Notes under the pieces: generated by a model
The model's database searches: none
What the model saw: only the letters and a program-made list of their open reading frames with translations
Told to the model about the DNA's origin: nothing
Assembly (NCBI GenBank): GCA_964536865.1
Contig: CAZHYN010000001.1
Coordinates: 16,195-80,194, forward strand
From: an uncultured Planctomycetia bacterium
GTDB lineage: Bacteria; Omnitrophota; Gorgyraeia; Duberdicusellales; 4484-171
Length of the DNA stretch: 64,000 nt
Direction of reading: 5' to 3'
Program-made: the position numbers and the translations under genes
Part shown: positions 2,416 to 43,327 of the stretch, piece after piece
Layout of the letters: every line of letters begins with the position of its first letter
How positions within the stretch are numbered: position 1 is the stretch's first letter

Positions 2416-5044
<2,629 letters not shown>

Positions 5045-5045
5045 A

Positions 5046-6143
5046 CTATAGTCTCATAGGTAAGACTAAATATATATAATCTTCTAATCTTAAGACCGCT
5101 GGTTTATCTGGACCATAGATTTCAAAACTAATTTCTTCTTCTTCTAAGTTAGTGAGAACGTCTATTAAATAAGAAGGATTAAATCCTATCTGTAAGGAGG
5201 TTCCTTTAAAGTTAGCAGGTATTGATTCTTTAACTTCTCCTAATTGAGGAGTAGTTTTAAAAAGAAAGACCTCCTCTTTTTTTAACTCTAATTTTACTCC
5301 GGGATAATCACTGGTGGATAAAAGCTCTGCTCTTTTTAAAGCCGATAAAAAATCTCTTCTTTTAATAGTGAGTTTAACTTCTGTGGGTTGAGGAATATAT
5401 TGAGAGTAATTAGGAAATTCACCTTCTATAGGTCTGGTAATAAAAAGTGTATGTTTTAAATCAAACCCTATATTATTTTTCTCTATAAAAATAAATAATT
5501 CCTCCGAATCTCTTATTATCTTAACTAATTCTTGAATGGATCTTATAGGAAGAATAAAATTAAGCTTTGTTGTTAAGTTAGATTGAGGAGAAGGTAGTTT
5601 TCTTTTAATAAAAGATAATCTCTTCCCATCTGTAGCAACTAATTTTAATTGGTCTTCATAAATTTCAAAAAATATCCCATTTAATACATAGTTAACATCC
5701 TCCATTCCTACACAAAATGAAGTTAATTTAATCATTTCTATTAAATCTTGAGAGATAATTTTTATTAAAGTTTTCTCTTTAACTTCCTCTATTCGAGGAA
5801 ATTCTTGAGGATCCATTCCATTTATTTTAAACTCAATTTTTCCACATCTTATTAAAAGATTGTTCTTATAAGACTCCAAGATAATTTTCTCTTTAGGTAG
5901 TTCTCTTATTATAGAGAGAAATTTTTTAGTAGGTATTGCAACTTTTCCTTCTCTTTCGATTTCTTTTGTTGGAGTATAAGTAGTTATAGTGATGTTTAAA
6001 TCTGTAGTAGTAAGTTTTATCTTATCTTTAAAAGCCTCTATTAGTATACAATTTAAAATAGGGAAGTTTTGTTTAGTAATAGAAAGAGTTGCTACTTTTT
6101 GAAGAGTTGATAATAAAATATTTTGTTCTATAACAAATCTCAC
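5046..6143 (-). CDS. dnaN: DNA polymerase III beta sliding clamp
   Basis: 365-aa ORF, typical clamp length and N-terminus, directly downstream of dnaA. Confidence 0.9.
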   Translation of the reverse strand: MRFVIEQNILLSTLQKVATLSITKQNFPILNCILIEAFKDKIKLTTTDLNITITTYTPTKEIEREGKVAIPTKKFLSIIRELPKEKIILESYKNNLLIRCGKIEFKINGMDPQEFPRIEEVKEKTLIKIISQDLIEMIKLTSFCVGMEDVNYVLNGIFFEIYEDQLKLVATDGKRLSFIKRKLPSPQSNLTTKLNFILPIRSIQELVKIIRDSEELFIFIEKNNIGFDLKHTLFITRPIEGEFPNYSQYIPQPTEVKLTIKRRDFLSALKRAELLSTSDYPGVKLELKKEEVFLFKTTPQLGEVKESIPANFKGTSLQIGFNPSYLIDVLTNLEEEEISFEIYGPDKPAVLRLEDYIYLVLPMRL

Positions 6144-7869: not shown

Positions 7870-8072
7870 AGAATATTTTTTTAACAATAATTGACTTTTA
7901 CGATTGCGCAAAATGGTTCTTTCCTACCTGTTGTAAATTTACTCCTTCTTGTTCTCAGTATGCCCGAGAGGCTTTTAGAAAATACCCTTTACCTAAGGCA
8001 TTAAAAGCAGTCTTCCTAAGAATCCTTAAATGCCATCCTTTTTCTCCGGGAGGGGTTGATTACTTAGAATAA
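7866..8072 (+). CDS. yidD: Membrane protein insertion efficiency factor YidD
   Basis: 68 aa with the C-K-F-x-P-S-C-S-x-Y motif; sits between rpmH and yidC. Confidence 0.85.
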
Positions 8073-10445: not shown

Positions 10446-10449
10446 TTTT

Positions 10450-11280
10450 ATGGAAAGGAAAGTATTAGGGAAAGGATTAGAGGCATTGATTCCTAAAAGA
10501 AAAGAAGAAAAGGAAAAAACGCTTCTTTATCTCTCTGTAGAGAAAATAGAACCTTCTCCTTTTCAACCTCGTCAAGAGATGGATGCCCAAGAATTAGAGG
10601 AGCTGAAAGCTTCTATCAGAGAGAAAGGGGTAATTCAACCTATTATAGTAAGAAAGGTGAGAGAAAGATTTGAAGTCGTTGCAGGAAGTCGCAGAGTTCA
10701 AGCTGCTAAGTCTTTGGGAATCAAAGAATTACCAGCAGTAGTTCGAGAGATAAGTGATAAAGAGTCTTTGGTTTTAGCTTTGATAGAAAATTTACAAAGA
10801 AAGAATCTCAATCCTATTGAGGAAGCATTAGCTTTTAAGAGATTAAACGAGGAATTTGCCCTCACCTATGAAGAGATAGCTAGACTCATAGGGAAAGATA
10901 AAGCCTCTATTTCTAACACTATCCGCCTTCTTAAACTCCCCCAGGAGATTCAGGAAGCCCTTAAGAAGAGTATAATTACCTTTACTCAAGCAAGGGCCCT
11001 TTTAGGATTGGAGAGAGAAGAGGAGCAGAAGGCCCTTTTTTACAGAATCATTAAAGAGAGACTTTCAGTAAGGGAGATAGAAGAAAGGGTAAGGAGACAC
11101 TTCCCTAAGAAACCGAAGAAGAAAGTTGAAGATCCTTTTGTGGAGGAAGTAGAGGAGAGATTGAGGAAGAGTTTAGGGACAAAAGTAAAAGTGTTGCATA
11201 AAAGAAACAATCAAGGTAAAATTATCATCCAGTATTACAACTTAACGGATTTACAGAGAATAGTAGAGAAGTTATCATGA
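10450..11280 (+). CDS. parB: Chromosome partitioning protein ParB/Spo0J
   Basis: 276 aa with ParB N-terminal box (GSRRVQAAK) and HTH; follows parA. Confidence 0.9.
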   Translation: MERKVLGKGLEALIPKRKEEKEKTLLYLSVEKIEPSPFQPRQEMDAQELEELKASIREKGVIQPIIVRKVRERFEVVAGSRRVQAAKSLGIKELPAVVREISDKESLVLALIENLQRKNLNPIEEALAFKRLNEEFALTYEEIARLIGKDKASISNTIRLLKLPQEIQEALKKSIITFTQARALLGLEREEEQKALFYRIIKERLSVREIEERVRRHFPKKPKKKVEDPFVEEVEERLRKSLGTKVKVLHKRNNQGKIIIQYYNLTDLQRIVEKLS

Positions 11281-22762: not shown

Positions 22763-22925
22763 GAAAATTCCCTGCCTGTTGCGTGAGCAGGCATTGCGCC
22801 ACAGCCAACACTGTTTAAGAGGGAGCTTTTCTCTCCTACTGCTGAGGCAGTGGGAGGCGGCGCCCACCTGTATGAGGACCGGACTGTTGGTGGTAAGCCT
22901 GCCACGGACACAAGGCAGGGTTTTT
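22763..22925 (+). ncRNA. Structured small RNA of about 160 nt; candidate 6S RNA (ssrS)
   Basis: Locally GC-rich, non-coding region between a consensus promoter and a hairpin + U5 terminator (GCCTGCC...GGCAGGG TTTTT at 22906-22925); long-range complementarity between the 5' and 3' ends (CCCTGCC/GGCAGGG, GCAGGC/GCCTGC, CCACAGCCAACA/TGTTGGTGG) and internal hairpins; lies upstream of rarA and the 5-formyl-THF cyclo-ligase gene, the classical 6S linkage. Confidence 0.45.
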
Positions 22926-22945: not shown

Positions 22946-24184
22946 ATGGCTGTCCCTTTAGCGGTTAAATTGAGACCTAATACCTTAGAAGAATTTGTAG
23001 GGCAGAAACATCTTTTAGGAGAGAGAAAACTTTTACGGCGAGCAATCCTTTCTAAAAGAGTCCCCCCTTTAATTTTCTGGGGTCCGGCAGGATGTGGTAA
23101 GACTACGTTAGGGTTTATAATCGCTAATTATCTAAGTGCAGAATTTAAGTATCTTAATGCTGCCTTTTCCTCTCTGAAGGAGATTAAGGAGATTCTTGAT
23201 CGGGCTCGTAGAGAATTTTCTAATACTCAGAAGCAGTTAATTCTCTTTGTTGATGAAATTCACCGCTTTAATAAACTTCAGCAGGAAGCTTTCCTCCCTG
23301 ACACCGAACATGGGACGATAATCTTTATTGGAGCAACTATTTATAACCCCTACTACTACCTCATTCCCTCATTAATATCTCGAGCTATTGTAGCCCACTT
23401 TCACCCTCTAAGTAAAGAGGAAATAATTACTATTTTGAAGAGAGCGTTAAGAGATAAAGAGCGAGGGTTGGGGAATTTAAATATAAAGATTACCAATAGA
23501 GCCTTAGAGTATCTTGCTACTCTTTCTGGAGGTGATGCGAGAAAAGCTCTTTCTAGTTTAGAGATAGGTGCTTTAACTACCTCTTCCGATAGAGATGGGA
23601 GGATAATTCTTAACTTAGAGGTAGCAAAAGAGATAATCCAGAAGAATATCTTCTATGATAAAAAGGATTCCTACCACTACGATACTATTTCTGCTTTTAT
23701 AAAATCTATCAGAGGGTCAGATGTGGATGCTAGCCTCTATTGGTTAGCTAAGATGATAAAAGCAGGAGAGGACCCTCGGTTTATTGCTCGAAGGTTAGTT
23801 ATTTTAGCTAGTGAAGATATAGGCAACGCTAACCCTTTTGCTCTGGTTTTAGCTACTAGTTGTTTTAAAGCTGTGGAATTTGTAGGAATGCCTGAAGCAA
23901 GTTTAATTTTGGCTCAGATTACCATTTACTTAGCTTCTTCTCCTAAATCTAACGCTAGTTACAAAGCTCTAGAGAGAGCTATGCAAGATATAGAGAAAGA
24001 AGAGACTAAGGAGGTTCCCTTTCATCTTAAAACACACTCTTCTCACTATAAATATCCTCACGATTTTGGAGGTTACCTAACACAGAGTTATGGTGTGAGC
24101 AGAAAATATTATTATCCCCTTAGTGTAGGAGAAGAGAAAAAGATAAAGGAGTTTTTAGATAATTTAAGGTCCCCTAATAGCTAG
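22946..24184 (+). CDS. rarA: Replication-associated recombination protein A (AAA+ ATPase RarA/MgsA)
   Basis: N-terminus LRPNTLEEFVGQKHLLG, Walker A GPAGCGKTTL, MgsA C-terminal helical domain. Confidence 0.9.
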   Translation: MAVPLAVKLRPNTLEEFVGQKHLLGERKLLRRAILSKRVPPLIFWGPAGCGKTTLGFIIANYLSAEFKYLNAAFSSLKEIKEILDRARREFSNTQKQLILFVDEIHRFNKLQQEAFLPDTEHGTIIFIGATIYNPYYYLIPSLISRAIVAHFHPLSKEEIITILKRALRDKERGLGNLNIKITNRALEYLATLSGGDARKALSSLEIGALTTSSDRDGRIILNLEVAKEIIQKNIFYDKKDSYHYDTISAFIKSIRGSDVDASLYWLAKMIKAGEDPRFIARRLVILASEDIGNANPFALVLATSCFKAVEFVGMPEASLILAQITIYLASSPKSNASYKALERAMQDIEKEETKEVPFHLKTHSSHYKYPHDFGGYLTQSYGVSRKYYYPLSVGEEKKIKEFLDNLRSPNS

Positions 24185-24871: not shown

Positions 24872-26422
24872 ATGCTTGCTATTTATATTATCCTCGGAAT
24901 ACTGGCAGGGTTAGGAGGAGGATATCTTTTAGGAGAACTTTTAGGAAAAGGTAGGGTTAAAAGAGCAAGAGAAGAAGCAACAAAATTTATAGAGGAAGCA
25001 AACCAGAAAGCAGAGCAAATTATTAGAAAAGCAGATTTGGACGCTAAAGAAATGCTTTACAAATTAAGGTTAGACTTTGAGAAACAGACAAGCCAAAAGA
25101 AGGAAGGACTTGCTCATTTAGAGAGGAAGTTAACTCAAAGGGAGGAAAATCTGGAGAGAAGATTAGATTTTATAGAGAGTAAGGAGAGAGAACTCTCTAG
25201 ACGAGAAGAAAACCTAAAAACTGCCTCTCGGGAATTGGAAGAACAAAGAGAAGAATTAGGTAGATTAATTGCAGAAGAGAAAGAGCATCTTCAGAAAATT
25301 TCTTCTTTAACTCCTCAAGAAGCTAGAGAACTTCTTCTTAAGAGATTTGAGGAGGAGTTACGGCAAGAGAAGGCAAAGATGTTGAGAGAGATAGAAGAGG
25401 AAGTTAAAGAAGAAGCAGAGAAGAAAGCTAAAGAGATCGTTTCCTTAGCAATTCAACGTTGTGCAGTAGAGCATACTACAGAAACTACGGTAAGTGTAGT
25501 GCAGCTTCCCAACGATGAGATAAAGGGAAGGATTATTGGTCGAGAAGGGAGAAATATAAGAGCTTTTGAGATGGTTACAGGGGTAGATTTAGTTATTGAC
25601 GATACCCCTGAAGCAGTAAGTATATCCAGTTTCGATCCTATAAGGAGAGAAATTGCTCGTTTAGCTTTAGAGAGTTTAGTCGCTGATGGGAGAATTCATC
25701 CTGCACGTATTGAAGAGGTAGTGGAGAAGACAAAGAAAGAGTTTGAAAAGAAGTTGATAGAAGAAGGTAAACAAGCTGCTTTTGAGGTAGGGATTCATAA
25801 CCTTCATCCTGAGTTAGTAAAGCTGTTGGGGAAGCTGAAGTATAGAACTAGCTTTGGCCAGAATGCCCTTCAACATTCTAAGGAGGTAGCATTTATTATG
25901 GGGATATTAGCTGCAGAGTTAAATTTAAATTCACATTTAGCTAAAAGAGTGGGTTTGCTTCATGATATTGGAAAGGCAGTAGATCATCAGGTGGAAGGTA
26001 CACATTCTAAAATTGGAGCAGAACTCCTAAGAAAGTATGGGGAAAATGAAATTGTAGTTAATGCTGCGGAAGCCCATCATGAAGAAGCAGAGTTTAAATC
26101 TCTCTATAGCCTTCTAGCCTTAGTAGCAGATGCCATAAGTGCTTCTCGACCAGGAGCAAGAAGAGAGACCTTAGAGACTTATATAAAGAGATTACATGAG
26201 TTAGAGAGTATCGCTTCTTCTTTCGAAGGAGTAGAGAAAGCTTTTGCTATCCAAGCAGGAAGAGAGATAAGAGTTATTGTGAGTCCTAACAAAATAAAGG
26301 ATGAAGAGATAGCTTTGTTGGCTTTGGAGATAAAGAAAAGGATAGAGAAAGAGATGGAATACCCTGGGCAGATTAAGATAACAGTAATAAGAGAGGTAAG
26401 GGCTATAGATTACGCAAAGTAA
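24872..26422 (+). CDS. rny: Ribonuclease Y
   Basis: N-terminal TM, coiled coil, KH domain ([12 protein letters not shown]) and HD domain (LLHDIGK); 516 aa. Confidence 0.9.
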
Positions 26423-33301: not shown

Positions 33302-33330
33302 TTGACAAATTTCTTCTTTTAGGGTATATT
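33302..33330 (+). promoter_or_regulatory. Sigma70-type promoter of the pyr operon
   Basis: TTGACA (33302-33307), 17-nt spacer, TATATT (33325-33330). Confidence 0.55.
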
Positions 33331-33343
33331 TGAGAAAACCTTT

Positions 33344-33370
33344 AAGCTGGTCCCGTGAGGCCAGCAAGGA
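33344..33370 (+). promoter_or_regulatory. PyrR-binding RNA stem-loop (anti-antiterminator element)
   Basis: AAGCTGGTCCCGTGAGGCCAGC: stem GCTGG/CCAGC enclosing UCCCGUGAGGCC, matching the PyrR box consensus (A/G)UCCnGnGAGGyU; located in the pyrR leader. Confidence 0.65.
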
Positions 33371-33400
33371 GAGGAACAATGAAAAAGAAATTTAAAATTA

Positions 33401-33437
33401 AAAACCCACTTTCAAAGAGTGGGTTTTATTTTTTTTA
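33401..33437 (+). terminator. Intrinsic terminator (pyr attenuator)
   Basis: AAAACCCACT-ttcaaag-AGTGGGTTTT followed by ATTTTTTTT, immediately upstream of the pyrR start. Confidence 0.7.
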
Positions 33438-33439
33438 AA

Positions 33440-33994
33440 ATGAAGTTTAGAGAGAAAGCAAAGATTCTATCTTCCCAAGATATAAAAAGAATCCTTCACC
33501 GCCTAACTCATCAAATTTTAGAGAAAAATCCTGATCCTTACGAACTTGTTATTGTAGGAATTCAAACACGCGGTGTTTACTTAGCCAAGAGGATTCAAGA
33601 AATTATAGAGAAGGTAGAAGGTGTAAGGTTGCCTTTAGGGATTTTAGATATCACTCTATATCGAGATGATTTGACGATGATAAGGGAGGTTCCTTTAGTG
33701 AAGGAGACTAAAATCAGTTTTGATTTAAGTGATAAAGTGGTGATTTTAATAGACGACGTTTTGTTTACAGGAAGAACAGTAAGGTGCGCTTTAGATGAGA
33801 TTATGGATTTTGGTCGTCCTAAGAGAATAGAGCTTTTAGTTCTTATTGACCGAGGTCATCGTGAGCTCCCTATAAGGGCAGATTTTGTGGGTAAAAATAT
33901 TCCTACTGCTAAGAGAGAGTTGGTAGAGGTGAAACTTACTGAGATAGATGGAATCGATGAGGTGGTGATTTTAGAGAAAGAAGAGGATGATTAA
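33440..33994 (+). CDS. pyrR: Bifunctional pyr operon regulator / uracil phosphoribosyltransferase PyrR
   Basis: PRPP-binding motif [19 protein letters not shown]; ATG 33440 chosen over the track's GTG 33419, which lies inside the terminator hairpin. Confidence 0.85.
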
Positions 33995-34931
33995 CTGGCA
34001 GAAGAAACATATTCTAGGGATAAAAGATTTGACTCGCCAGGAGATGGAGATAGTATTTAATCTAGCAACGTCTTTTAAAGAGCTTTCTCAAAGAGAAGTG
34101 AAAAAGGCTCCTGCTTTGCGAGGAAAGACCGTGATAAATTTATTTTTTGAAAGCTCTACTCGTACACGCACATCTTTTGAGCTAGCTGCCAAGCGTTTAA
34201 GTGCCGATGTGTTAAATTTTTCTTCCTCAACAAGTAGTCTTAGCAAAGGAGAAACAATAGTCGATACTATTAAGAATTTAGAGTCTTATCATCCTGATAT
34301 TTTAGTGATAAGGGTAGGCTACTCTAATTCTCTTCAGTTTCTTTCTCAATATACCTCTGCTAGCATAGTTAACGCAGGAGACGGTGCTAATGAGCATCCT
34401 ACGCAAGCTTTACTTGATATGTTTACAGTTAAAGAAATAAAGGGAACTTTGGAAGGATTATCTGTGCTAATTGTGGGAGATATAAAACACTCTCGGGTAG
34501 CACGCTCTAACATCTTTGGATTTCAAAAATTTTCCTCTTCTCTTAAAGTATGTGGGCCACCTACTCTTATTCCCTATGAATTTCATAAGTTAGGAGTGGA
34601 TATTTCTTATAATTTGGATGAGTGTCTTCCTCAAGCAGATGTGATAATTTTTTTGAGAATTCAATGGGAACGGCAGAAATCTTCTTTTTTCCCTAGTATA
34701 AGAGAATACGTAAGTAACTTTTCTCTCACTCCTGAAAGAATAAAGAGAATAAAAAAGGATTGTCTTATTATGCATCCCGGTCCAGTAAATTGGGATATAG
34801 AGATAAGTTCCCAGTTAAAAGAAAGAATTCACCCTTTAATCCTTAAGCAAGTAGAGAATGGTTTAGCTATAAGAATGGCTACTCTTTATCTTGTAGGGAC
34901 ACAGAAAGGAGAGTATGAAGATACTAATTAG
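33987..34931 (+). CDS. pyrB: Aspartate carbamoyltransferase catalytic subunit
   Basis: STRTRTSFE and HPTQ motifs. Confidence 0.95.
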
Positions 34932-36204
34932 AGGGGCAAAGATAGTAAATTTTGATAGTATCGTAGAAGCGGATATTTTTATTCGCAATAGTCGTGTTGC
35001 TAAGATAGGAGAGGTTAATGAGGAGCCAGATAAAATTATTGATGCTCGAGGAAAATTTGTTCTTCCAGGATTGATTGATATGCACACTCATCTACGTACC
35101 CCGGGTAGAGAAGACGAAGAAGATTTGTGGTCTGGGTCAAAAGCAGCAGCTAAAGGTGGTTTTACTACCATCTTCTGTATGCCTAATACTAATCCTGCCT
35201 TAGATAACCAGGGTCAGGTGAATTGGCTTTTAGAGGAAGCAGAAAAAGTTGGGATATTAGAGATTCTTCCTGTGGGTGCGATTACTAAAGGCAGAGAAGG
35301 GAAAGAGTTATCGGAATTTGGAATGCTTAAACAAGCAGGATGTCTCTGTTTAAGTGATGATGGCAACCCCTTAGAAGATTCTTCTCTTTTAAGAAGAGCT
35401 TTAGAGTATGCTAAGATGTATGGTCTGCTTATTATTTCCCATTGTGAAGATAAAAACCTTTCTGCCTCAGGAAGTCTACGAGAGCACCTCATTTCCTCTA
35501 AGTATGGAGTGGAAGGGATTCCTTGGGCGAGTGAAAGCATAGCAGTATTTAGAGATGTAGAGTTAGCAAGGTACTTAGACACAAAAATCCATATTGCTCA
35601 CGTAAGTAGTAAAAGGAGTCTCCAAATTATAAAAAGAGCTAAAGAGGAAGGGGTAAAGGTAAGTTGCGAGACCGCCCCTCATTACTTTACTCTTACTATA
35701 GAAGATTTAGAGAAGAGTCATTTTCACCCTAACTTTAAAGTCAATCCTCCTTTAGGAGATAGAGAGGATCTAGAGGCAATAAGAGAAGGTTTAAAAGAAG
35801 GGGTAATTGATTGCATTGCTACTGATCATGCTCCTCACTCTCAGGGAGAGAAGGAGTTACCTTTTGAAGAAGCACCTCCTGGAGTTATAGGACTGGAATT
35901 AGCATTTTCTCTTTCCTATACTTATTTGGTGAAGAAACAGATATTAGATTTAAAAGACCTTGTAAAACTAATGTCTTATAATCCTGCAAATATCTTAGGT
36001 CTTAAGGATAAGGGGTATATAAAAGAGGGAGCTTGGGCAGATTTAGTTATTATAGATTTATCTAAGAGTTGGCAAGTACTCCCTCATAAACTTTTTTCTA
36101 AATCCAAAAATACACCGTTTATTGGTCATACTCTCGAAGGGGTAGTAGAGTACACTATCAGTAGAGGTAAGGTTGTTTATACTGAGAAAAATAAAAATGG
36201 TTAA
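34915..36204 (+). CDS. pyrC: Dihydroorotase
   Basis: DMHTHLR metal-binding motif; 429 aa. Confidence 0.9.
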   Translation: MKILIRGAKIVNFDSIVEADIFIRNSRVAKIGEVNEEPDKIIDARGKFVLPGLIDMHTHLRTPGREDEEDLWSGSKAAAKGGFTTIFCMPNTNPALDNQGQVNWLLEEAEKVGILEILPVGAITKGREGKELSEFGMLKQAGCLCLSDDGNPLEDSSLLRRALEYAKMYGLLIISHCEDKNLSASGSLREHLISSKYGVEGIPWASESIAVFRDVELARYLDTKIHIAHVSSKRSLQIIKRAKEEGVKVSCETAPHYFTLTIEDLEKSHFHPNFKVNPPLGDREDLEAIREGLKEGVIDCIATDHAPHSQGEKELPFEEAPPGVIGLELAFSLSYTYLVKKQILDLKDLVKLMSYNPANILGLKDKGYIKEGAWADLVIIDLSKSWQVLPHKLFSKSKNTPFIGHTLEGVVEYTISRGKVVYTEKNKNG

Positions 36205-36658
36205 ATTTATCCTTACCAAAGAGCTAGGAAGATTAGCTAGATGGTTACGTATTCTAGGGTTTGATACCTACTACTATACCTCTGATAATATGGGCACACT
36301 TATAATTTATGCCTTAAGGGAAAACAGAGTAATTGTTACTAGAAGAAAACGTGTTGATGATATGAAAGTAGTGGTAGTAGAAACTAATGATGTTAGAAGT
36401 CAGATAAGAGAGTTAGTAGAGAAGTTAAAACTGAAGATAGACGAAAGTTTAATGTTTTCTCGCTGTGTGATATGTAATGAGCCTTTAGAGAAAGTTGATA
36501 AAGAAGAAATCAGAGGAAAGGTTCCTGAATATGTGTATATAAGTCAACAAGAATTTTATCGCTGCCCCAGTTGTCAACGTCTCTATTGGCAAGGAAGTCA
36601 TTGGGGTAATGTTAAGGAAATTTTAAAGAAGGTTTTGGCTGGAAATGTTTATAGCTGA
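36197..36658 (+). CDS. Mut7-C RNase-domain protein (DUF82 family)
   Basis: N-terminus MVKFILTKELGRLARWLRILGFDT typical of PF01927, with a C-terminal Zn-ribbon (CVICNE...CPSCQRLYW). Confidence 0.7.
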   Translation: MVKFILTKELGRLARWLRILGFDTYYYTSDNMGTLIIYALRENRVIVTRRKRVDDMKVVVVETNDVRSQIRELVEKLKLKIDESLMFSRCVICNEPLEKVDKEEIRGKVPEYVYISQQEFYRCPSCQRLYWQGSHWGNVKEILKKVLAGNVYS

Positions 36659-37880
36659 TTTTCATATTCATTCTAAGTACTCTCGAGCTACCTCCAAAAA
36701 TATGAATATTTCTAATCTAATAGAATGGGCTCGTTATAAAGGGATTCATCTTTTAGGTACTGGAGATTTTACTCATCATCTGTGGCTTCAGGAGATAAAG
36801 CAAAACTTAGAGTACCTTCCGGAAAAAGGATTGTTTTTCTCTGAGGGAGTATATTTTATTCTTTCAGGAGAGGTTTCTAATATCTTCTCTGAAAGAGGTA
36901 AGGTTTATCGGGTGCATAATCTAATTATGGCTCCTTCCTTAGAGATGACGCACCAGATAAATAAGATGTTAAGCTACTACGGAAATTTGGCTTCCGACGG
37001 TAGACCGGTCTTAGGGATAAGTTGTAAAAATTTGGCTGAGGAGCTATTCAAAATTTCTCCCGATATTATGCTTATTCCTGCTCATATCTGGACTCCTTGG
37101 TTTGGTGTATTTGGTTCTAATTCTGGATTTAACTCTTTAGAAGAGGCATTTCAAGAATTCACAGATAAGATTACTGCTTTAGAAACGGGATTAAGTTCCG
37201 ATCCTCCTATGAATTGGAGATTGTCTGCGTTAGATAAATTTTCTTTAGTCTCCAATTCCGACTCACACTCTCCTCAAAGAATAGGTAGAGAAGCTAATGT
37301 ATTCGATTGCGAAATTAACTATTGGGAGATCAAGAGAGTCTTAGAGACCAAAGATAAAAATAAATTTTTATACACTGTAGAGTTTTTTCCTCAAGAAGGG
37401 AAGTATCATTACGATGGACACAGAAATTGTAAGGTAAGGCTTCATCCTAAAGAGACGAAAAAGCATAAAGGAATTTGTCCCGTTTGTGGAAGACCCTTAA
37501 CTAGAGGGGTTCTAAATAGAGTTGAAGAATTAGCTGACCGAGAGGAAGAGTTTGTTCCTCCCAACAGCATTGGCTATAAAAGTTTAGTTCCTTTGAGTGA
37601 AATTATCGCTGAGGCTAGAGGAGTAGATAAAGGTAGTAAAGCAGTAGAGAAGGAGTACTTAAAGTTAGTTAGAGAGTTTGGTTCAGAATTCAATCTTTTA
37701 GTAAGCGTGGAAGAAAATCAACTTTTTTCGCATCTCCCTCCTAAAATAGCTGAAGGGATAAAGAGAGTGAGAGAAGGGAGGTTGAATATCATTCCTGGAT
37801 TTGATGGAGAGTATGGAGTAATTAAAATATTTGATCAAACAGAGGATAAAAACAAAGACTCCCAGCTTACTCTTTTCTAA
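36645..37880 (+). CDS. Endonuclease Q-like PHP-domain nuclease with C-terminal zinc finger
   Basis: PHP motifs DFHIHSKYS, GTGDFTH, AHIWTPW, SNSDSHSP and zinc ribbon CPVCGRPL..., consistent with my recollection of archaeal EndoQ / TIGR00375. Confidence 0.6.
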   Translation: MFIADFHIHSKYSRATSKNMNISNLIEWARYKGIHLLGTGDFTHHLWLQEIKQNLEYLPEKGLFFSEGVYFILSGEVSNIFSERGKVYRVHNLIMAPSLEMTHQINKMLSYYGNLASDGRPVLGISCKNLAEELFKISPDIMLIPAHIWTPWFGVFGSNSGFNSLEEAFQEFTDKITALETGLSSDPPMNWRLSALDKFSLVSNSDSHSPQRIGREANVFDCEINYWEIKRVLETKDKNKFLYTVEFFPQEGKYHYDGHRNCKVRLHPKETKKHKGICPVCGRPLTRGVLNRVEELADREEEFVPPNSIGYKSLVPLSEIIAEARGVDKGSKAVEKEYLKLVREFGSEFNLLVSVEENQLFSHLPPKIAEGIKRVREGRLNIIPGFDGEYGVIKIFDQTEDKNKDSQLTLF

Positions 37881-38377
37881 TGAAAGTAGCAATAGTATTT
37901 TATTCCTTCTCAGGAAATACAGAAAAAGTAGTTCAATTTGTGAAGGATTTTTTTCTAAGAAAAAATATTCCGGTAGAAGTTTTTAGGCTAAAGCCTGTAA
38001 AAGAGGAGGTCTCTTTTTTAAGACAGGGGATACAGGCTTTTTTTAAGAAGACTATTCCTATTTTAGAGATAAATTACGACTTAGGTAGTTATGATTTAGT
38101 AGTGTTTGCCTCTCCTGTTTGGGCATTCACTATCTCCCCCGCCTTAAGAAGTTACCTCAAAAAAGTTAAAAACTTAGAAAGAAAGAAGATAGTTTGCTTT
38201 TTAACCTTTGGAAGTGGAGTTGGGGCAAAGAAAGCTTTAAGAGAATTAGAGGGTATTTTGAAGAGTAAAAGGGCAGAGGTTATATTTTCTAAGAATTTAG
38301 TAGGGGCAAAAGCAGGAGATAGAAGTTATTTAGAGGAGAGCTTTAGATATTTAAATAAGCTTTTTGACTTTCTATAA
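37880..38377 (+). CDS. Flavodoxin-like protein
   Basis: MKVAIVFYSFSGNTEKV flavodoxin N-terminus; 165 aa. Confidence 0.7.
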   Translation: MKVAIVFYSFSGNTEKVVQFVKDFFLRKNIPVEVFRLKPVKEEVSFLRQGIQAFFKKTIPILEINYDLGSYDLVVFASPVWAFTISPALRSYLKKVKNLERKKIVCFLTFGSGVGAKKALRELEGILKSKRAEVIFSKNLVGAKAGDRSYLEESFRYLNKLFDFL

Positions 38378-38386
38378 AAGCAGAGA

Positions 38387-38458
38387 GCCCCTGTAGCTCA
38401 ACGGATAGAGCACAGGCCTCCGGAGCCTGGAATACAGGTTCAATTCCTGTCAGGGGCA
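38387..38458 (+). tRNA. tRNA-Arg (CCG)
   Basis: Acceptor GCCCCTG/CAGGGGC, D-loop AGCTCAACGGATAGAGC, anticodon loop CTCCGGA, T-loop TTCAATT. Confidence 0.85.
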
Positions 38459-38470
38459 AAAGAGATTGTT

Positions 38471-38914
38471 ATGAATGTAGGAGTAATTGGAGGTTATAGT
38501 TGTTCAAGGAGAGCCTATAAACTCGCTAGGGAGGTAGGTCGACTCATCGCTCAGCAAGGGTGGATTTTAATCTGTGGAGGAGGTTCGGGAGTTATGGAAG
38601 CAGCTTGTTTAGGAGCAAAGGAGAAAGGGGGTATAACCTGCGGGATACTCCCCAGCTATACAGGGGAAGAAGCAAATCCTTATTTAGATATTAAAATTCC
38701 CACAGGGTTGGGCTATGCTCGTAATATTTTAGTGGTGAGAGCTTCCCATTGTTTAGTGGCTGTTGATGGTAAATATGGAACTCTTTCCGAGATAGCATTT
38801 GCTCTGAATGAAGGAAAACCTGTTTTGGGTATGGATACTTGGGATATAAAGGGAGTAGTAAAAGTAAAGAATCCTCGAGAAGCAATAGAGTATATTAAAA
38901 AGAAAATATTATGA
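38471..38914 (+). CDS. TIGR00725 / LOG-like Rossmann-fold protein
   Basis: CGGGSGVMEA and PTGLGYARN motifs of the LOG / DprA-like nucleotide-binding family. Confidence 0.65.
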   Translation: MNVGVIGGYSCSRRAYKLAREVGRLIAQQGWILICGGGSGVMEAACLGAKEKGGITCGILPSYTGEEANPYLDIKIPTGLGYARNILVVRASHCLVAVDGKYGTLSEIAFALNEGKPVLGMDTWDIKGVVKVKNPREAIEYIKKKIL

Positions 38915-40044
38915 AAGCAGCATTGTTTTTAGAGGATGGATTTTACCTGGAGGGGATAGGCTTTGGTTATCCTGGAGAGACAATTGGTGAGGTTGTTTTT
39001 AATACTTCTATGACAGGGTATCAGGAGATTTTAACCGACCCTTCCTATCGAGGTCAAATTGTCTGCATGACTTATCCTCTCATTGGAAATTATGGAGTGA
39101 ATTCCTCTGATACAGAGTCATCAAAAGTTCAGGTGGAGGGTTTTATTGTAAAGGAGCGTTCTCGCATAGAGAGTAATTGGCGGGCAGAAAGTTCCTTAGA
39201 GAATTATTTAAAAACAAACAGAGTAGTAGCAGTGGAGGGGGTGGATACGCGAGCGATAACCCGACGTCTGAGAGAAAAGGGTTCAATGAAAGGAGTAATC
39301 TCTGTTGTTGATTTTGATCAAGAGAGTCTACGGAGGAAGTTAGAGGATTTCCCTTCTATCGTAGGAAGAGACCTAGTAGCTGGGGTAACTACAAAAGAGG
39401 TTTATGAGTGGAAAGAGGATTTGGGGTTAAGAAGGATGAAGGAAGTAAAAAAGGCATCATTTACAGTAGTGGTGGTAGATTGCGGGGTTAAATTTAGTAT
39501 TTTGCGATGCTTAAAAGAGTATGTGGAGAGGGTAGTTGTTGTTCCCGCTAACACTCCTTTAAAAGAAATCTTAAAATTTAAACCTCAGGGAATCCTTTTC
39601 TCTAACGGTCCTGGAGACCCTCAGCCAGTGAGTTATGTAATCGAAACTGCTAGGGAGTTAATCCAGAGATTAAAGAAAAAAGAAATAAAAATAGGAGTTA
39701 TGGGGATATGTTTGGGTCATCAAATTTTAGGTCTTGCCTTTGGAGGGAAGGCTCAAAAACTAAAATTTGGTCATCATGGAGGAAACCATCCAGTAAAAGA
39801 TTTAACTACAGGAAGAATTGATATTACTAGTCAGAATCACAATTTTGTTATTCCTCCCCAAAGTATTCCTGAGGAAGGTTTAGTTCAGACACATATTAAT
39901 CTTTATGATCACACACCTGAAGGCTCTGAGCATAAAGAGTTACCTATCTTTAGCGTACAGTTTCATCCCGAAGCCGGTCCCGGGCCCTTTGATGCTCGTT
40001 ATATATTTGGTAAGTTCGTCGGTCTGATGAAAGTTTTATCCTAA
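38911..40044 (+). CDS. carA: Carbamoyl-phosphate synthase small (glutamine amidotransferase) subunit
   Basis: GICLGHQ catalytic Cys motif; 377 aa. Confidence 0.95.
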   Translation: MKAALFLEDGFYLEGIGFGYPGETIGEVVFNTSMTGYQEILTDPSYRGQIVCMTYPLIGNYGVNSSDTESSKVQVEGFIVKERSRIESNWRAESSLENYLKTNRVVAVEGVDTRAITRRLREKGSMKGVISVVDFDQESLRRKLEDFPSIVGRDLVAGVTTKEVYEWKEDLGLRRMKEVKKASFTVVVVDCGVKFSILRCLKEYVERVVVVPANTPLKEILKFKPQGILFSNGPGDPQPVSYVIETARELIQRLKKKEIKIGVMGICLGHQILGLAFGGKAQKLKFGHHGGNHPVKDLTTGRIDITSQNHNFVIPPQSIPEEGLVQTHINLYDHTPEGSEHKELPIFSVQFHPEAGPGPFDARYIFGKFVGLMKVLS

Positions 40045-40090: not shown

Positions 40091-43000
40091 ATGCCTAAAC
40101 GGAGAGACATAAAAAAAATTCTAATAATTGGTTCTGGCCCCATTGTTATTGGTCAGGCATGTGAATTTGATTACTCAGGGACACAAGCTTGTAAAGCTCT
40201 AAAAGAAGAAGGTTACCAAGTAATTCTTCTTAATTCCAATCCTGCAACGATTATGACTGATCCTGGGTTTGCCGATAGCACTTACATTGAGCCGATAACG
40301 GTAGAAGTTTTAGAAAAGGTAATTGCTCGGGAAAGACCTCAAGCCTGTCTTCCTACCTTGGGAGGACAAACCGGTCTTAACGTTGCTTTTGAGGCTGCCA
40401 AAAGAGGGATATTAGATGCCTACAAGGTGGAGTTAATTGGTGCTAACCGGGAAGCTATTGCCCGTGCCGAGGACAGAAAGCTGTTTAAACTCACTATGGA
40501 AAAAGCAGGGATCCCTTTACCTCGTTCTCGCACTGTCTATTCTCTAAAAGAGGCGGAGGAGGCTTTAGAATTCGTGGGTCTACCTTGTGTAGTAAGACCT
40601 GCGTTTACCTTAGGAGGTACAGGGGGAGGAATTGCTTACAATATTGAAGAGTTTAAAGCAGCTGTTAAACGAGGAATAGATGCCAGTTTAATTGGTGAGG
40701 TTTTGATTGAAGAGTACTTGGAAGGTTGGAAAGAGTTTGAGCTTGAGGTAATGAGAGATAAGAAAGATAACGTGGTTATTATCTGTTCTATAGAAAACTT
40801 TGATCCTATGGGAATTCATACCGGAGATTCTATTACTGTAGCTCCTGCTCAGACTTTGACTGATATAGAGTATCAAAGAATGCGAATCTATGCTATAAGA
40901 GCTATCAGGGCAATAGGAGTAGAGACGGGAGGGAGTAACATTCAATTTGCCATAAATCCTAAGGATGGAAGAATAGTGATTATTGAGATGAATCCCAGAG
41001 TTTCTCGTTCTTCTGCTTTGGCTTCTAAAGCAACAGGATTCCCTATTGCTAAGATTGCTGCTAAATTAGCTGTAGGGTTAACTTTAGATGAGATTCCTAA
41101 TGACATTACCAAAGAAACTCCTGCATCTTTTGAGCCTGCAATAGACTACTGCGTAGTCAAAATTCCTCGTTTTACTTTTGAAAAGTTTCCCAAAGCGGAC
41201 CCTGCTCTTAATACTTCTATGAAGTCAGTAGGGGAGGTGATGGCTATAGGAAGAACATTTAAGGAGGCCCTTCTTAAAGGGATAAGAGCTTTAGAGATTG
41301 GTAAATATGGATTAGAGTCTATGATAGATAAAGAGAAATTGCCTCTGGGAGAGGTAATAGAGAAAGTAAAGCAAAATTTAACCATTCCTAACGCGAAGAG
41401 GATTTTTTATATTGCCGATGCATTTCGTTTAGGATTTAAAGTAGAAGAGGTAGAAGGACTAACTCATATAGATAAGTGGTTCTTAAATAATATAAAAGAG
41501 CTTATTGATTTTGAGGAGAAGTTGAAGAAAGATAAGAAGTTAACTCCTTACATCTTACGAAAAGCAAAAGAGTTAGGTTTCTCTGATATTTACTTAGGTA
41601 AAATCCTTCAGATTTCTTCTGAGAGGATTCGTAAGATTAGAGAAAAAGAGAAGATTTTTGCTGTATACAAATTGGTAGATACCTGTGCAGGTGAATTTGA
41701 AGCTTATACTCCTTACTACTACTCAACCTATGAGTGTGAGTGTGAAGCGAGGGTTTCTCAAAGAAAGAAAGTGATGATTTTAGGAGGTGGTCCTAACCGG
41801 ATTGGTCAGGGGATTGAGTTTGACTACTGTTGTGTACACGCTGCCTTTGCTCTGAGAGAAGAAGGTATTGAGGTAATTATGGTAAATTGTAATCCCGAGA
41901 CGGTTTCTACTGATTATGATACCTCTGATAAGCTTTACTTTGAGCCAATAACCTTGGAGGATGTTTTAAATATTGTCCGTAAAGAGTCTCCCTGGGGAGT
42001 GATTCTCCAGTTCGGTGGTCAAACTCCTCTTAACTTAGCTTTGGGATTAGAGAAAGAAAAGGTAAATATTTTAGGAACAAAGGCAAAGTATATAGATATT
42101 GCTGAAGATAGGGATAAATTTAGGAGCCTTCTCTTAAAGTTAGGACTTAGACAACCGGAGAGCGGGATCGCTAAAAGTTTGGAGGAAGCAAAAAAGATAG
42201 CTTTTCAGATTGGCTTTCCTGTTTTAGTAAGGCCCTCCTACGTTTTAGGAGGTAGGGCAATGGAGATAGTCTACGACTTAGAAACTCTGGAGGGTTTTGT
42301 AAAGGAAGCTTTAGAATACTCTATGAATCAGACTATCCTTATTGATAAGTTCCTTGAAGATGCTATTGAGGTAGATGTGGATTTGATCGGCGATGGGAAG
42401 AATTTTGTTATTGGAGGTATCTTAGAGCACATTGAGGAAGCAGGGATTCATTCTGGAGATAGCGCAATGTGTCTTCCTCCTTTTAGCCTCCCTAAAGAGA
42501 TAGTAGACAAGATTAGAGAAGCAAGCTATGCCCTAGCAAGAGAACTAAATATTGTAGGTCTTATGAATCTCCAGCTAGCAGTGAAGAATCGCTCTATTTT
42601 TGTTCTAGAGGTGAACCCTCGAGCGTCAAGAACAGTTCCTTTTGTTTCTAAAGCTATAGGTGTAGCTCTGGCCAAATTAGCGGCTAAGGTAATGGCAGGC
42701 AATACCTTAAAACAGTTAGGATTTACCAAGGAGATAGTTCCTCTCTATCGGTGTGTGAAAGAAAGTGTTTTCCCTTTTAATCGTTTTCTAGGAGTAGATA
42801 TAATCTTGGGTCCTGAGATGAAATCTACTGGGGAGGTTATGGGAATAGATTTTGAATTTGGAAGAGCTTATCTTAAGAGCCAATTAGGAGCTTCACAGAA
42901 TTTACCTAAAGGAGGAGTGGTGTTTATCTCAGTAAGAGATAAAGATAAGAAAGGTATTGTTCCTGTAGCCAAGAGATTGAAAGAGCTAGGATTCAAAATC

Positions 43001-43327
43001 TTAACTACTCAAGGGACAGGGAAAATACTAAAGGAAGAAGGAATCGATGTAAAAGTCCTTCCTAAGCTTGCTGAAGGAAGACCCAATATTATAGACTACA
43101 TAAAAAACAAACAAGTTCATCTTATTATTAATACTCCCTCGGGAAGAATCCCCCGTAAAGATGAAACAGTGATAAGAAGTACAGCAACTCTTTATAGGGT
43201 TCCTTGCATTACTACTGTAAGTGGAGCCATTGCTTCTACCAAGGCTATAGAGGTTCTCCTCTCCCACGATGTAGAGGTGAAAAGTATTCAAGAATATCAT
43301 CATCTTCTGAACTCTTCTCAATTTTAG
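40091..43327 (+). CDS. carB: Carbamoyl-phosphate synthase large subunit
   Basis: 1078 aa with duplicated ATP-grasp halves and MGS-like C-terminal domain. Confidence 0.95.

What the first reader, a model, noticed from the sequence alone, without database searches (positions are those of the whole stretch)
36645..37880. Bacterial EndoQ-like PHP-domain nuclease inserted, with a Mut7-C nuclease-domain protein, between pyrC and carAB
The 411-aa protein carries the PHP motif series (HIHS, GTGD, AHIWTPW, SNSDSHSP) plus a C-terminal CxxC zinc ribbon. This matches my recollection of archaeal endonuclease Q, which cleaves 5' of dU and hypoxanthine. EndoQ is essentially archaeal, with sporadic bacterial occurrences. 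It sits with a Mut7-C RNase-domain protein, a flavodoxin, tRNA-Arg and a LOG-like gene, and together these interrupt an otherwise contiguous pyrimidine cluster (pyrR-pyrB-pyrC ... carA-carB).
Basis: partly seen in the sequence, partly recalled or inferred. Interest (0 to 1): 0.5.

Follow-up and report, generated by a model that had tools for sequence, protein, structure and literature searches.

The report
Bacterial endonuclease Q in pyrimidine operon
The gene is a genuine bacterial relative of archaeal endonuclease Q, an enzyme that nicks DNA next to uracil or hypoxanthine; it is an old, fixed part of a pyrimidine-synthesis operon in Omnitrophota bacteria, and it belongs to a family that is common in bacteria, not rare.

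Summary
The 411-aa ORF at 36645-37880 (+) is real. It is a full-length homologue of Pyrococcus furiosus EndoQ: phmmer E 6.5e-58 over residues 4-398, and an AlphaFold model matching 5zb8/7k30 at TM 0.82-0.88, against at most 0.33 for generic PHP esterases. All six catalytic metal ligands are kept, as are Arg/His, the lesion-pocket residues and the Trp wedge. The zinc site is His-Cys3 instead of Cys4, as in all 80 bacterial-type homologues compared.

The source is a Candidatus Omnitrophota bacterium. The family is not sporadic in bacteria: at least 600 species-level genomes across many phyla carry it, with 1015 clusters (50% identity) at E<=1e-30. Many members are fused to, or sit next to, a UvrD-type helicase.

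The gene is not a recent insert. The order pyrR-pyrB-pyrC-(Mut7-C)-EndoQ-(flavodoxin)-tRNA-Arg-SLOG-carAB recurs across Omnitrophota down to 57% identity, behind a PyrR attenuator, and GC content is flat. Mut7-C is only a variable companion.

The disordered C-terminal tail ends in QLTLF, the beta-clamp-binding consensus. The motif sits at the C-terminus in 119 of 120 close relatives, where archaeal EndoQ has a PCNA-binding PIP box.

Verdict: a new member of a known kind, of modest interest.

The parts
33302..33330 (+). sigma-70-type promoter-like site TTGACA-17-TATATT (11 of 12) ahead of the operon leader
   Evidence: An equivalent TTGACA box lies ahead of the leader in related loci. It is a consensus match only; function is inferred.
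33335..33435 (+). PyrR-binding attenuator leader; the terminator hairpin is at 33401-33427, followed by a T-run
   Evidence: Rfam RF00515 scores 57.9 bits (gathering 54). Terminator scan; sequence. The same leader motif is seen upstream of pyrR in L004-L007, L009, L085 and L086.
33441..33994 (+). pyrR (the ATG at 33441 lies after the terminator; the ORF list starts at GTG 33419)
   Evidence: PF00156 E 2.5e-20; sequence.
33987..34931 (+). pyrB, aspartate carbamoyltransferase
   Evidence: PF02729 and PF00185.
34915..36204 (+). pyrC, dihydroorotase
   Evidence: PF01979 and PF12890.
36197..36658 (+). Mut7-C domain protein (153 aa) with a CxxC...CxxC zinc ribbon. It overlaps pyrC by 8 nt and EndoQ by 14 nt.
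   Evidence: PF01927 E 1.1e-41. Gene call; sequence. Present in the same position in only some related loci.
36645..37880 (+). EndoQ-family endonuclease (411 aa): PHP domain, zinc-binding domain, C-terminal helical domain, disordered tail
37419..37487 (+). zinc-binding site His259-x2-Cys262 ... Cys278-x2-Cys281 (Pfu has Cys249/252/268/271)
   Evidence: Residue mapping. His is at the first position in all 80 other bacterial-type homologues compared, and also in the query.
37863..37877 (+). C-terminal QLTLF (res 407-411), a predicted beta-clamp-binding motif in the disordered tail
   Evidence: Sequence. pLDDT is below 50 for res 399-411. Q407 and F411 are invariant and L410 is kept in >=90% of the 37 aligned sequences. 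119 of 120 close relatives end in a Q-x-x-[LF]-F pentapeptide. Enrichment against other ORFs; motif definition.
37880..38377 (+). flavodoxin-like protein; its start overlaps the EndoQ stop codon (TAATG)
   Evidence: PF03358 and PF12724; sequence.
38387..38458 (+). tRNA-Arg(CCG) inside the operon
   Evidence: It holds the same position in L003, L007, L028 and L083-L086.
38471..38914 (+). SLOG cluster 4 / TIGR00725 LOG-like protein
   Evidence: PF18306 E 4.3e-47; TIGR00725 138.9 bits, above the cutoff of 106.9. PDB relatives.
38911..40044 (+). carA
   Evidence: PF00988 and PF00117.
40091..43327 (+). carB
   Evidence: PF02786 and others.
5046..6143 (-). dnaN, the beta sliding clamp and predicted docking partner of the EndoQ tail. 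It is not part of the operon.
   Evidence: PF00712, PF02767 and PF02768.

Best explanation
The ORF encodes a bacterial-clade endonuclease Q.

Shown:
- It has the three-domain EndoQ architecture (PHP catalytic domain, zinc-binding domain, C-terminal helical domain).
- Every residue that PfuEndoQ uses for metal catalysis, for the lesion pocket that admits uracil or hypoxanthine, and for the Trp wedge is kept. The exception is pocket residue Pfu L168, which contributes only its main chain; it is Thr181 here.

Inferred: it flips a deaminated base (dU, dI) or an abasic site into that pocket and cuts the phosphodiester bond immediately 5' of the lesion. This leaves a nick that starts an excision and resynthesis repair.

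Inferred from a conserved short motif: the flexible C-terminal tail ending in QLTLF docks the enzyme on the beta sliding clamp. This is the bacterial counterpart of the PIP box that ties archaeal EndoQ to PCNA, and it would put the enzyme at replication or repair sites.

Inferred from fusions and neighbours in other bacteria: the nick is then processed with a UvrD-type helicase.

Shown: the gene lies in an operon that begins with a PyrR attenuator, with overlapping reading frames and no internal terminator-like site of comparable strength.

Inferred: it is therefore co-expressed with pyrimidine biosynthesis genes.
For: Homology: phmmer against the PDB gives PfuEndoQ E 6.5e-58, query 4-398 against chain 5-385, with 35.5% identity over 377 positions. 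TIGR00375 is hit at E 3.6e-59 over the full profile, 2-374/374. The precomputed Pfam domain is PF27218 MJ0043_C, and several close relatives are named 'endonuclease Q family protein' by NCBI.

Structure: the AF2 model has pLDDT 86.1 and pTM 0.88. Foldseek gives 5zb8 at E 2.3e-37, TM 0.85-0.88, and the DNA complex 7k30 at TM 0.82/0.85. The next hits are generic PHP proteins at TMq <=0.33.

Residues (Pfu roles taken from PMC5961232 and PMC8307549):
- Metal ligands H8/H10/E76/H84/H139/D193 correspond to H7/H9/E76/H91/H147/D206.
- R114 and H195 correspond to R120 and H208.
- Pocket residues T142/E167/G169/L170/S171/N191 correspond to T150/E180/G182/L183/S184/N204.
- The W144 wedge corresponds to W152.
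- These positions are identical in 78-82 of the 82 aligned sequences.

Activity of bacterial members: the Bacillus pumilus and B. subtilis enzymes are reported as active (cited in PMC5961232 and PMC4357722).

Clamp motif:
- The query ends in QLTLF, and the tail is disordered.
- Q407 and F411 are invariant in a variable tail.
- 119 of 120 close relatives end in a Q-x-x-[LF]-F pentapeptide.
- 42 of 80 wider homologues carry the motif, against 5 of 652 other ORFs. Four of those five are helicases that lie next to EndoQ.
- In fusion proteins the motif moves to the new C-terminus.
- Archaeal members of the set instead end in QxxLxxF, which is PIP-like.
- The best-binding consensus is QLxLF (PMC11139829).
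- PfuEndoQ binds PCNA through a C-terminal PIP box.

Helicase link: the fusions contain PF00580 and PF13361, and separate helicase genes lie directly downstream in other loci.

Operon: PyrR site, promoter and terminator, gene overlaps, and conserved synteny.
Against: - No biochemical data exist for this protein or for any Omnitrophota member.
- The TIGR00375 score (201 bits) is below NCBI's curated cutoff of 326.6, so the protein is divergent from the seed set.
- The first zinc ligand is His, not Cys.
- The clamp interaction rests on a five-residue motif only. Its stricter form is met by about half of the wider homologues; many CPR members have only Q-x-x-LF.
- Co-transcription is inferred from sequence, not measured.
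- This window encodes no UvrD-type helicase next to the gene.
Confidence: 0.72

Rival explanations
1. It is a generic PHP-family phosphoesterase (for example a nucleotide or RNA phosphatase/exonuclease) that shares only the PHP metal motifs with EndoQ and does not act on damaged DNA.
For: Local Pfam-A has no hit above threshold, only a weak PHP_C hit at E 0.051. TIGR00375 is below its curated cutoff.
Against: The homology covers all three EndoQ domains, not just the PHP domain. Structural matches to EndoQ reach TM 0.82-0.88, against <=0.33 for generic PHP proteins. The lesion pocket, the wedge Trp and the zinc-domain residues are conserved.
Confidence: 0.02
2. The Mut7-C/EndoQ/flavodoxin/tRNA-Arg/SLOG block is a recently acquired foreign cassette, archaeal or mobile, that integrated at the tRNA gene and split a once-contiguous pyr-car operon.
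For: A tRNA gene lies inside the block. TIGR00375, TIGR00725 and Mut7-C are families with many archaeal members (own knowledge). Published work proposes an archaeal origin for EndoQ.
Against: The same gene order, including tRNA-Arg(CCG), recurs in Omnitrophota loci down to 57% EndoQ identity. The pyr-linked sequences form one clade in a rough NJ tree, far from Pfu. GC content is flat at 0.35-0.41. Reading frames overlap. No integrase or repeats were seen. The nearest relatives are bacterial.
Confidence: 0.04
3. Its main role is defence: destroying uracil-containing foreign (phage) DNA rather than repairing the host genome.
For: A review relays this suggestion for the Bacillus enzymes and notes that B. 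subtilis EndoQ is insensitive to the phage inhibitor Ugi (PMC8307549).
Against: There are no PADLOC hits for EndoQ, Mut7-C or the flavodoxin. The gene sits in a housekeeping biosynthetic operon that is conserved across a phylum. The clamp-binding tail and the helicase partnership fit repair or replication.
Confidence: 0.08
4. The bacterial clade has shifted its substrate (for example to ribonucleotides, mismatches or fork structures) and works as the nuclease arm of a UvrD-type helicase-nuclease machine, rather than as a dU/dI endonuclease.
For: Most 50%-identity cluster representatives are helicase fusions of 1000-1200 aa. The clade has its own signatures: His in the zinc site, Thr181, and a score below the TIGR00375 cutoff.
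Against: The residues that exclude T and A and recognise U and Hx in Pfu (H139, G169, S171 and the rest of the pocket) are kept in the query and nearly invariant across the clade. Bacillus enzymes are reported with archaeal-like specificity.
Confidence: 0.12

Closest known systems
Pyrococcus furiosus endonuclease Q (PF1551; PDB 5ZB8, 7K30-7K33)
   Same: Full-length homologue with three matching domains. All catalytic metal ligands, Arg/His, the lesion pocket and the Trp wedge are kept. The model superposes at TM 0.82-0.88. Both have a disordered C-terminal tail carrying a sliding-clamp motif.
   Different: Only 35.5% identical. The first zinc ligand is His instead of Cys. Pocket residue L168 is Thr (a main-chain contact in Pfu). 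The tail carries the bacterial QLxLF motif instead of the PIP box QRTLLQYI. The source is a mesophilic-looking, 36-40% GC Omnitrophota genome rather than a hyperthermophile.
Bacterial EndoQ of Bacillus pumilus / B. subtilis (Shiraishi et al. 2017, cited in PMC5961232)
   Same: These are bacterial EndoQ homologues, reported to nick 5' of dU, dI and AP sites. They show that bacterial family members can be active.
   Different: The 2017 paper is not held. The phylum and the genomic context (PyrR-controlled pyr operon) are different.
EndoQ-UvrD helicase fusion proteins (about 1000-1200 aa; e.g. Geobacter argillaceus L073, Desulfovibrio L052)
   Same: The N-terminal EndoQ module is 47-50% identical, with the same His-Cys3 site and the same terminal QLxLF.
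   Different: The window protein is the short, helicase-less form, and there is no helicase gene next to it.
TIGR00375 (NCBIfam hypothetical equivalog) / Pfam PF27218 MJ0043_C
   Same: The hit covers the whole TIGR00375 profile at E 3.6e-59. PF27218 is precomputed on this exact protein.
   Different: The score of 201 bits is below the curated cutoff of 326.6.

Membership tests
Endonuclease Q family (as defined by PfuEndoQ) | Homology over all three domains: PHP, zinc-binding, C-terminal helical | tested here: met
   phmmer E 6.5e-58, query 4-398 against chain 5-385. Foldseek TM 0.82-0.88 to 5zb8/7k30 over about 400 columns.
Endonuclease Q family (as defined by PfuEndoQ) | Catalytic metal ligands H8, H10, E76, H84, H139, D193, plus the required R114 and H195 | tested here: met
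   They correspond to H7, H9, E76, H91, H147, D206, R120 and H208. These residues are present in every one of the 82 aligned sequences except one that has a gap at H7/H9. Residue roles are from PMC5961232.
Endonuclease Q family (as defined by PfuEndoQ) | Lesion-recognition pocket (T142, E167, L168, G169, L170, S171, N191) and wedge W144 | tested here: met
   T150, E180, G182, L183, S184, N204 and W152 are conserved. L168 is Thr181, but that position contributes its main chain in Pfu.
Endonuclease Q family (as defined by PfuEndoQ) | C4 zinc site (C249, C252, C268, C271; CPxCG signature) | tested here: inconclusive
   The query has H259, C262, C278 and C281, and CPVCG is present. The first ligand is His in all bacterial-type sequences compared. 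His can ligate zinc (established chemistry), but zinc binding was not tested.
Endonuclease Q family (as defined by PfuEndoQ) | C-terminal sliding-clamp-interaction motif on a disordered tail | tested here: met
   The bacterial equivalent QLTLF lies at res 407-411, in a tail with pLDDT below 50. It is conserved. Binding itself is not testable here.
Endonuclease Q family (as defined by PfuEndoQ) | Cleavage of the phosphodiester bond 5' of dU, dI, dX or an AP site | not testable with these tools
   This needs an enzyme assay.
NCBIfam TIGR00375 (hypothetical equivalog) | Whole-protein score at or above the curated cutoff of 326.6 bits | tested here: not met
   201 bits, E 3.6e-59, over the full profile. 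The protein is therefore not filed as a TIGR00375 equivalog, only as a divergent relative.
Mut7-C (PF01927), for the neighbouring gene | Pfam gathering score and four-Cys zinc ribbon | tested here: met
   142.8 bits against a cutoff of 23.3, covering 2-145/146. CVIC...CPSC are present. The family has no assigned function, and nuclease activity is doubtful.
PyrR-attenuated pyr operon | PyrR-binding RNA leader with terminator upstream of pyr genes, and a pyrR gene | tested here: met
   RF00515 scores 57.9 bits against a gathering score of 54. A terminator hairpin with a T-run is present. pyrR matches PF00156.
Known anti-phage defence systems (PADLOC) | Match to a defence-system protein model | tested here: not met
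   No hits for EndoQ, Mut7-C or the flavodoxin. There are only weak SLOG/DprA-like hits for the LOG-like protein.

The most novel reading that the evidence does not exclude
In Omnitrophota, EndoQ may be part of a PyrR-governed 'uracil hygiene' module. A beta-clamp-tethered dU/dI endonuclease would be co-expressed with de novo pyrimidine synthesis. In sister genomes it would also be co-expressed with dCTP deaminase (the step that makes dUTP/dUMP) and with the Fpg glycosylase. Surveillance of newly made DNA for uracil would then be coupled to the state of the pyrimidine pool.

The wider corollary is that bacterial EndoQ, with a UvrD-type helicase and the beta clamp, forms a widespread and so far unrecognised clamp-coupled nick-and-unwind repair route that parallels archaeal EndoQ-PCNA.
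Probability: 0.25. Interest if true: 0.55.

Novelty: new member of a known kind. Interest (0 to 1): 0.3.

Why it matters

This locus and its relatives show three things:
- There is a large bacterial clade with its own signatures.
- That clade has a bacterial clamp-binding tail where archaea have a PIP box.
- It has a recurrent partnership with UvrD-type helicases.

Together these give testable predictions about how bacteria that carry it deal with uracil and hypoxanthine in DNA. The gene itself, however, is an ordinary, already nameable family member; NCBI labels close relatives 'endonuclease Q family protein'. Its presence here is not surprising once the real distribution is seen.

Tried and rejected
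- Local Pfam-A gave no family for the protein. The relevant model, PF27218, exists only as a precomputed label.
- PADLOC gave nothing relevant.
- The Shiraishi 2017 paper on Bacillus pumilus EndoQ is not held, and the supplementary alignment of PMC5961232 is not held. I therefore could not compare the query with the characterised bacterial enzymes, or learn how the published 'families 2 and 3' are defined.
- A search for papers joining EndoQ with the beta clamp listed none among its top results. The 2024 beta-clamp review does not contain the words 'endonuclease' or 'UvrD'.
- I first read locus L084 as showing EndoQ-Fld-SLOG-carB detached from pyrRBC, with a decayed Mut7-C. The record has a run of N exactly there, and L083 has one upstream of pyrR, so that reading was dropped.
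- Rfam at gathering threshold found the PyrR element only in the window and in L004. The leader motif was then found by eye and by pattern in six more loci, which is weaker evidence.
- I considered Mut7-C to be a functional partner nuclease and rejected the idea. It is absent from most related loci, and its family has no shown nuclease activity.
- The neighbour-joining tree has no support values and only one archaeal family-1 sequence, so it cannot polarise any ancient inter-domain transfer.
- I ran no further search on archaeal EndoQ or on Mut7-C. The listings return only the closest 120 hits and would not have given the diversity needed.
Full report
**Observation.** The ORF at 36645..37880 (+) exists, starts with ATG and encodes 411 aa. 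The neighbours are also as described:
- pyrR, pyrB and pyrC lie upstream.
- A Mut7-C protein (PF01927, E 1.1e-41) overlaps both pyrC and the ORF.
- A flavodoxin-like gene starts on the ORF's stop codon (TAATG).
- These are followed by tRNA-Arg(CCG), a SLOG/TIGR00725 LOG-like gene, carA and carB.

**What the protein is.** Against all PDB sequences, the only real hits are Pyrococcus furiosus endonuclease Q (5zb8, 7k30-33). The E-value is 6.5e-58, aligned from residue 4 to 398 of 411, with 35.5% identity over 377 positions. NCBIfam TIGR00375 is hit over its full length (E 3.6e-59), but at 201 bits, below the curated 326.6-bit cutoff. The local Pfam copy has no model for the family. The precomputed label on this exact protein is PF27218 MJ0043_C.

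An AlphaFold2 model built on 37 sequences (pLDDT 86.1, pTM 0.88) superposes on PfuEndoQ at TM 0.85-0.88 and on the EndoQ-DNA complex 7k30 at 0.82/0.85. The next structures are generic PHP phosphoesterases at query-normalised TM of 0.33 or less.

**Residue-level test.** I took residue roles from the PfuEndoQ structure paper (PMC5961232) and from a review of the DNA complex (PMC8307549). I mapped them through the HMMER alignment:
- Metal ligands H8/H10/E76/H84/H139/D193 are H7/H9/E76/H91/H147/D206.
- The required R114 and H195 are R120 and H208.
- Pocket residues T142, E167, G169, L170, S171 and N191 are T150, E180, G182, L183, S184 and N204.
- The wedge W144 is W152.
- The one pocket difference, L168 to T181, is at a position that contributes its main chain.
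- The zinc site reads H259, C262, C278, C281 instead of four cysteines.

In an alignment of the query, Pfu and 80 homologues from species-level genomes, the catalytic and pocket positions are invariant or nearly so. The first zinc ligand is His in all 81 bacterial-type sequences (the query and the 80 homologues) and Cys only in Pfu. His-Cys3 is therefore a signature of this clade, not a defect of this gene.

**Source and distribution.** The closest database proteins (93-97% identical) come from Candidatus Omnitrophota. They are named either 'endonuclease Q family protein' or, misleadingly, 'DNA helicase UvrD'.

The family is large:
- The word-index search saturated at 8000 scored candidates.
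- An exhaustive HMMER scan of 1.84 billion 50%-identity representatives found 1015 at E<=1e-30 and 3679 at E<=1e-3.

The best 80 loci come from many groups: Omnitrophota, WOR-3, many Patescibacteria, Planctomycetota, Desulfobacterota/Thermodesulfobacteriota (including Geobacter and Desulfovibrio), Chloroflexota, Bacillota, Bacteroidota, Spirochaetia, Nitrospirae, Elusimicrobia, Fibrobacterota and Cloacimonadota. A few are DPANN archaea.

Published statements that EndoQ is limited to Euryarchaeota and a few bacteria no longer describe the data. The query is 47-58% identical to members of other bacterial phyla, against 35.5% to Pfu. In a rough neighbour-joining tree, Pfu sits on a long branch outside all bacterial-type sequences, and the pyr-linked Omnitrophota sequences form one clade. 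That tree has no support values and cannot settle any ancient transfer.

**Is it an insertion?** No. The order pyrR-pyrB-pyrC-EndoQ-(flavodoxin)-SLOG-(carA)-carB is found in Omnitrophota-type loci L003-L009 and L028, down to 57% EndoQ identity. It is also found in contigs carrying 69-79% identical proteins (L083, L085, L086). tRNA-Arg(CCG) sits in the same slot in eight loci, counting the window. GC content is flat at 0.35-0.41 across 30-46 kb, and the reading frames overlap.

Mut7-C is present between pyrC and EndoQ in the window, L008, L083 and L086. It is absent from L003-L007, L009 and L085, so it is a variable companion. L084 looked like an exception, but it has a run of N at the critical place and cannot be interpreted.

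The literature assigns no function to stand-alone Mut7-C proteins and now doubts nuclease activity. It proposes a nucleic-acid-binding role instead (PMC5499597, PMC11347159). The four Omnitrophota copies begin KFILT. By my own recollection of the family consensus, an acidic residue is expected where that Thr stands; I could not test this.

**Regulation.** Three elements precede pyrR:
- a near-consensus promoter, TTGACA-17-TATATT, at 33302-33330;
- an Rfam PyrR-binding element at 33335-33435, scoring 57.9 bits against a gathering score of 54;
- within that element, a terminator hairpin and T-run at 33401-33435.

The pyrR ATG follows at 33441. The same leader motif, usually with a promoter box and a terminator, precedes pyrR in L004-L007, L009, L085 and L086. 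No terminator-like site of comparable strength lies between pyrC and carB. Co-transcription of EndoQ with the pyr and car genes under PyrR attenuation is therefore the most economical reading, but it is inferred, not measured.

**A clamp-binding tail.** The protein ends ...DKNKDSQLTLF. Residues 399-411 are predicted to be disordered. In 37 aligned relatives, the tail varies except for invariant Q407 and F411 and near-invariant L410.
- Of 120 close relatives, 119 end in a Q-x-x-[LF]-F pentapeptide.
- Among the 80 wider homologues, 42 have Q-[LMIVF]-x-[LFM]-F in the last eight residues, against 5 of 652 other ORFs from the same loci. Four of those five are UvrD-type helicases encoded right next to a short EndoQ.
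- Many of the remaining homologues, chiefly Patescibacteria, end in Q-x-x-LF.
- In the fusion proteins the motif is at the new C-terminus, and a second copy often remains at the domain junction.
- The three DPANN archaeal members end instead in QKTLGEF or QKRLDSFL, which are PIP-like.

The canonical beta-clamp-binding motif is Q-phi-x-[L/M]-[F/L], with QLxLF the tightest binder. It often sits on a C-terminal tail (PMC11139829). PfuEndoQ binds PCNA through a C-terminal PIP box, and PCNA stimulates it. I therefore infer that bacterial EndoQ docks on the beta clamp, whose gene is in this window at 5046-6143 (-). The paper search joining EndoQ with the beta clamp listed no such paper among its top results, and the 2024 beta-clamp review does not mention endonucleases or UvrD. 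The library lacks most subscription journals, however.

**Helicase partnership.** Most 50%-identity representatives are 1000-1200 aa long. The extra part is a UvrD/REP helicase (PF00580, PF13361). This explains the wrong 'DNA helicase UvrD' name that was propagated to short forms such as this one. In Planctomycetales-type loci, the helicase is a separate gene immediately downstream. This recurrent fusion and adjacency suggests that the EndoQ nick is followed by UvrD-type unwinding. In the window, no such helicase is adjacent.

**Mechanism, with status.**
- Shown: the fold, the active-site inventory, the pocket, the zinc-domain motif, the tail motif, and the operon anatomy and its conservation.
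- Inferred from the family: the enzyme flips dU, dI or an AP site into the pocket and cuts 5' of it.
- Inferred from motif and analogy: it is tethered to the beta clamp.
- Inferred from fusions elsewhere: processing by a helicase follows.
- Inferred from sequence: expression follows PyrR control.
- A link to pyrimidine metabolism is suggestive only. In sister genomes the cluster runs on into dCTP deaminase and Fpg, but neither gene is in this window.

**Verdict.** This is a genuine, probably active, bacterial-clade EndoQ, and so a new member of a known kind. The rarity premise, the 'insertion' reading and the Mut7-C pairing are not supported. Interest is modest. The clamp motif, the His-Cys3 signature and the conserved pyr-operon setting are useful leads rather than surprises.

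Noticed in passing
L073:5995-9258, L049:5998-9360, L066:5995-9279, L052:5992-9093; also L035:3556-5007, L043:7292-8956: Many bacterial EndoQ homologues are fused to a UvrD/REP helicase (about 1000-1200 aa), or have a compact UvrD-type helicase gene directly downstream. Fusions often carry two QLxLF-like motifs, one at the domain junction and one at the C-terminus. This explains the 'DNA helicase UvrD' misnomer given to short forms.
   Followed up: partly
P0125, P0124, P0166, P0187 (representatives): Some EndoQ homologues carry inteins (Intein_splicing plus LAGLIDADG domains). The inteins are inserted near the positions that correspond to query residues ~147 and ~206, i.e. at the catalytic His and Asp motifs.
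   Followed up: partly
L083:12537-13049 and 15145-; L084:12870-13382 and 14077-14880; L085:8854-9366 and 9752-10552; also L003, L004, L005, L007, L028: In other Omnitrophota genomes the same cluster continues into a dCTP deaminase (DCD fold) and an Fpg DNA glycosylase, often with a YjbQ-family gene between them. Neither DCD nor Fpg is found in the 64-kb window.
   Followed up: partly
L045, L060, L062, L071, L075, L076, L080 (e.g. L062:3295-4413 dnaN; L075:920-3349 gyrB): In seven related loci, most of them labelled Desulfobacterales, the EndoQ-helicase fusion lies within a few kb of dnaN and gyrB, on the opposite strand. This may simply be lineage synteny.
   Followed up: no
window 2416-4764 (-), 5046-6143 (-), 6256-7584 (-): gyrB, dnaN and dnaA lie together, so the window probably includes the chromosomal origin region. 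GC skew is positive across 30-46 kb, and nearly all genes there are on the + strand.
   Followed up: no
window 38387-38458; L003:2710-2782, L007:7709-7780, L028:3650-3721, L083:8759-8833, L084:8754-8827, L085:8239-8310, L086:8729-8802: A tRNA-Arg(CCG) gene is embedded inside the protein-coding operon at the same place in eight loci, which implies co-transcription and processing from the pyr/car mRNA.
   Followed up: partly
window 39467-39562: ARAGORN reports a 'tRNA-???' with a two-base anticodon inside carA. Rfam finds no tRNA there, so it is most likely a false positive.
   Followed up: partly
L006 (JAIWAR010000037.1, labelled Methanosarcinales archaeon); L004 and L009 (labelled Planctomycetia): These contigs carry the Omnitrophota-type pyrR-pyrB-pyrC-EndoQ arrangement, with 57-69% identical EndoQ and a bacterial clamp motif on L004 and L006. 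Their taxonomic labels probably come from mis-binning.
   Followed up: no
L034:5977-7233, L047:5974-7233, L059:5989-7236: DPANN archaeal homologues (Micrarchaeota, Aenigmatarchaeota) have the bacterial-type His-Cys3 zinc site and 52-55% identity to the query. Their tails, however, are PIP-like (QKTLGEF, QKRLDSFL). This hints at inter-domain transfer followed by adaptation of the tail to the host's clamp.
   Followed up: partly
window 36197-36658; L008:3702-4169, L083:6535-6981, L086:6558-7004: All four Omnitrophota Mut7-C proteins begin KFILT-x-E. As I recall the family consensus, the first acidic active-site residue is expected where that Thr stands. If so, they would be non-catalytic nucleic-acid-binding modules.
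   Followed up: no
window 22766-22925 (+); 22946-24184 (+); 24872-26422 (+): A 6S RNA (Rfam 52.5 bits) lies directly upstream of an MgsA/RarA-type AAA+ ATPase gene, and RNase Y follows shortly after.
   Followed up: no
L083:~2620-2715 and L084:~6750-6845: There are runs of N in these two complete-genome records, immediately upstream of pyrR (L083) and of the truncated Mut7-C (L084). Gene content at these points cannot be read.
   Followed up: yes
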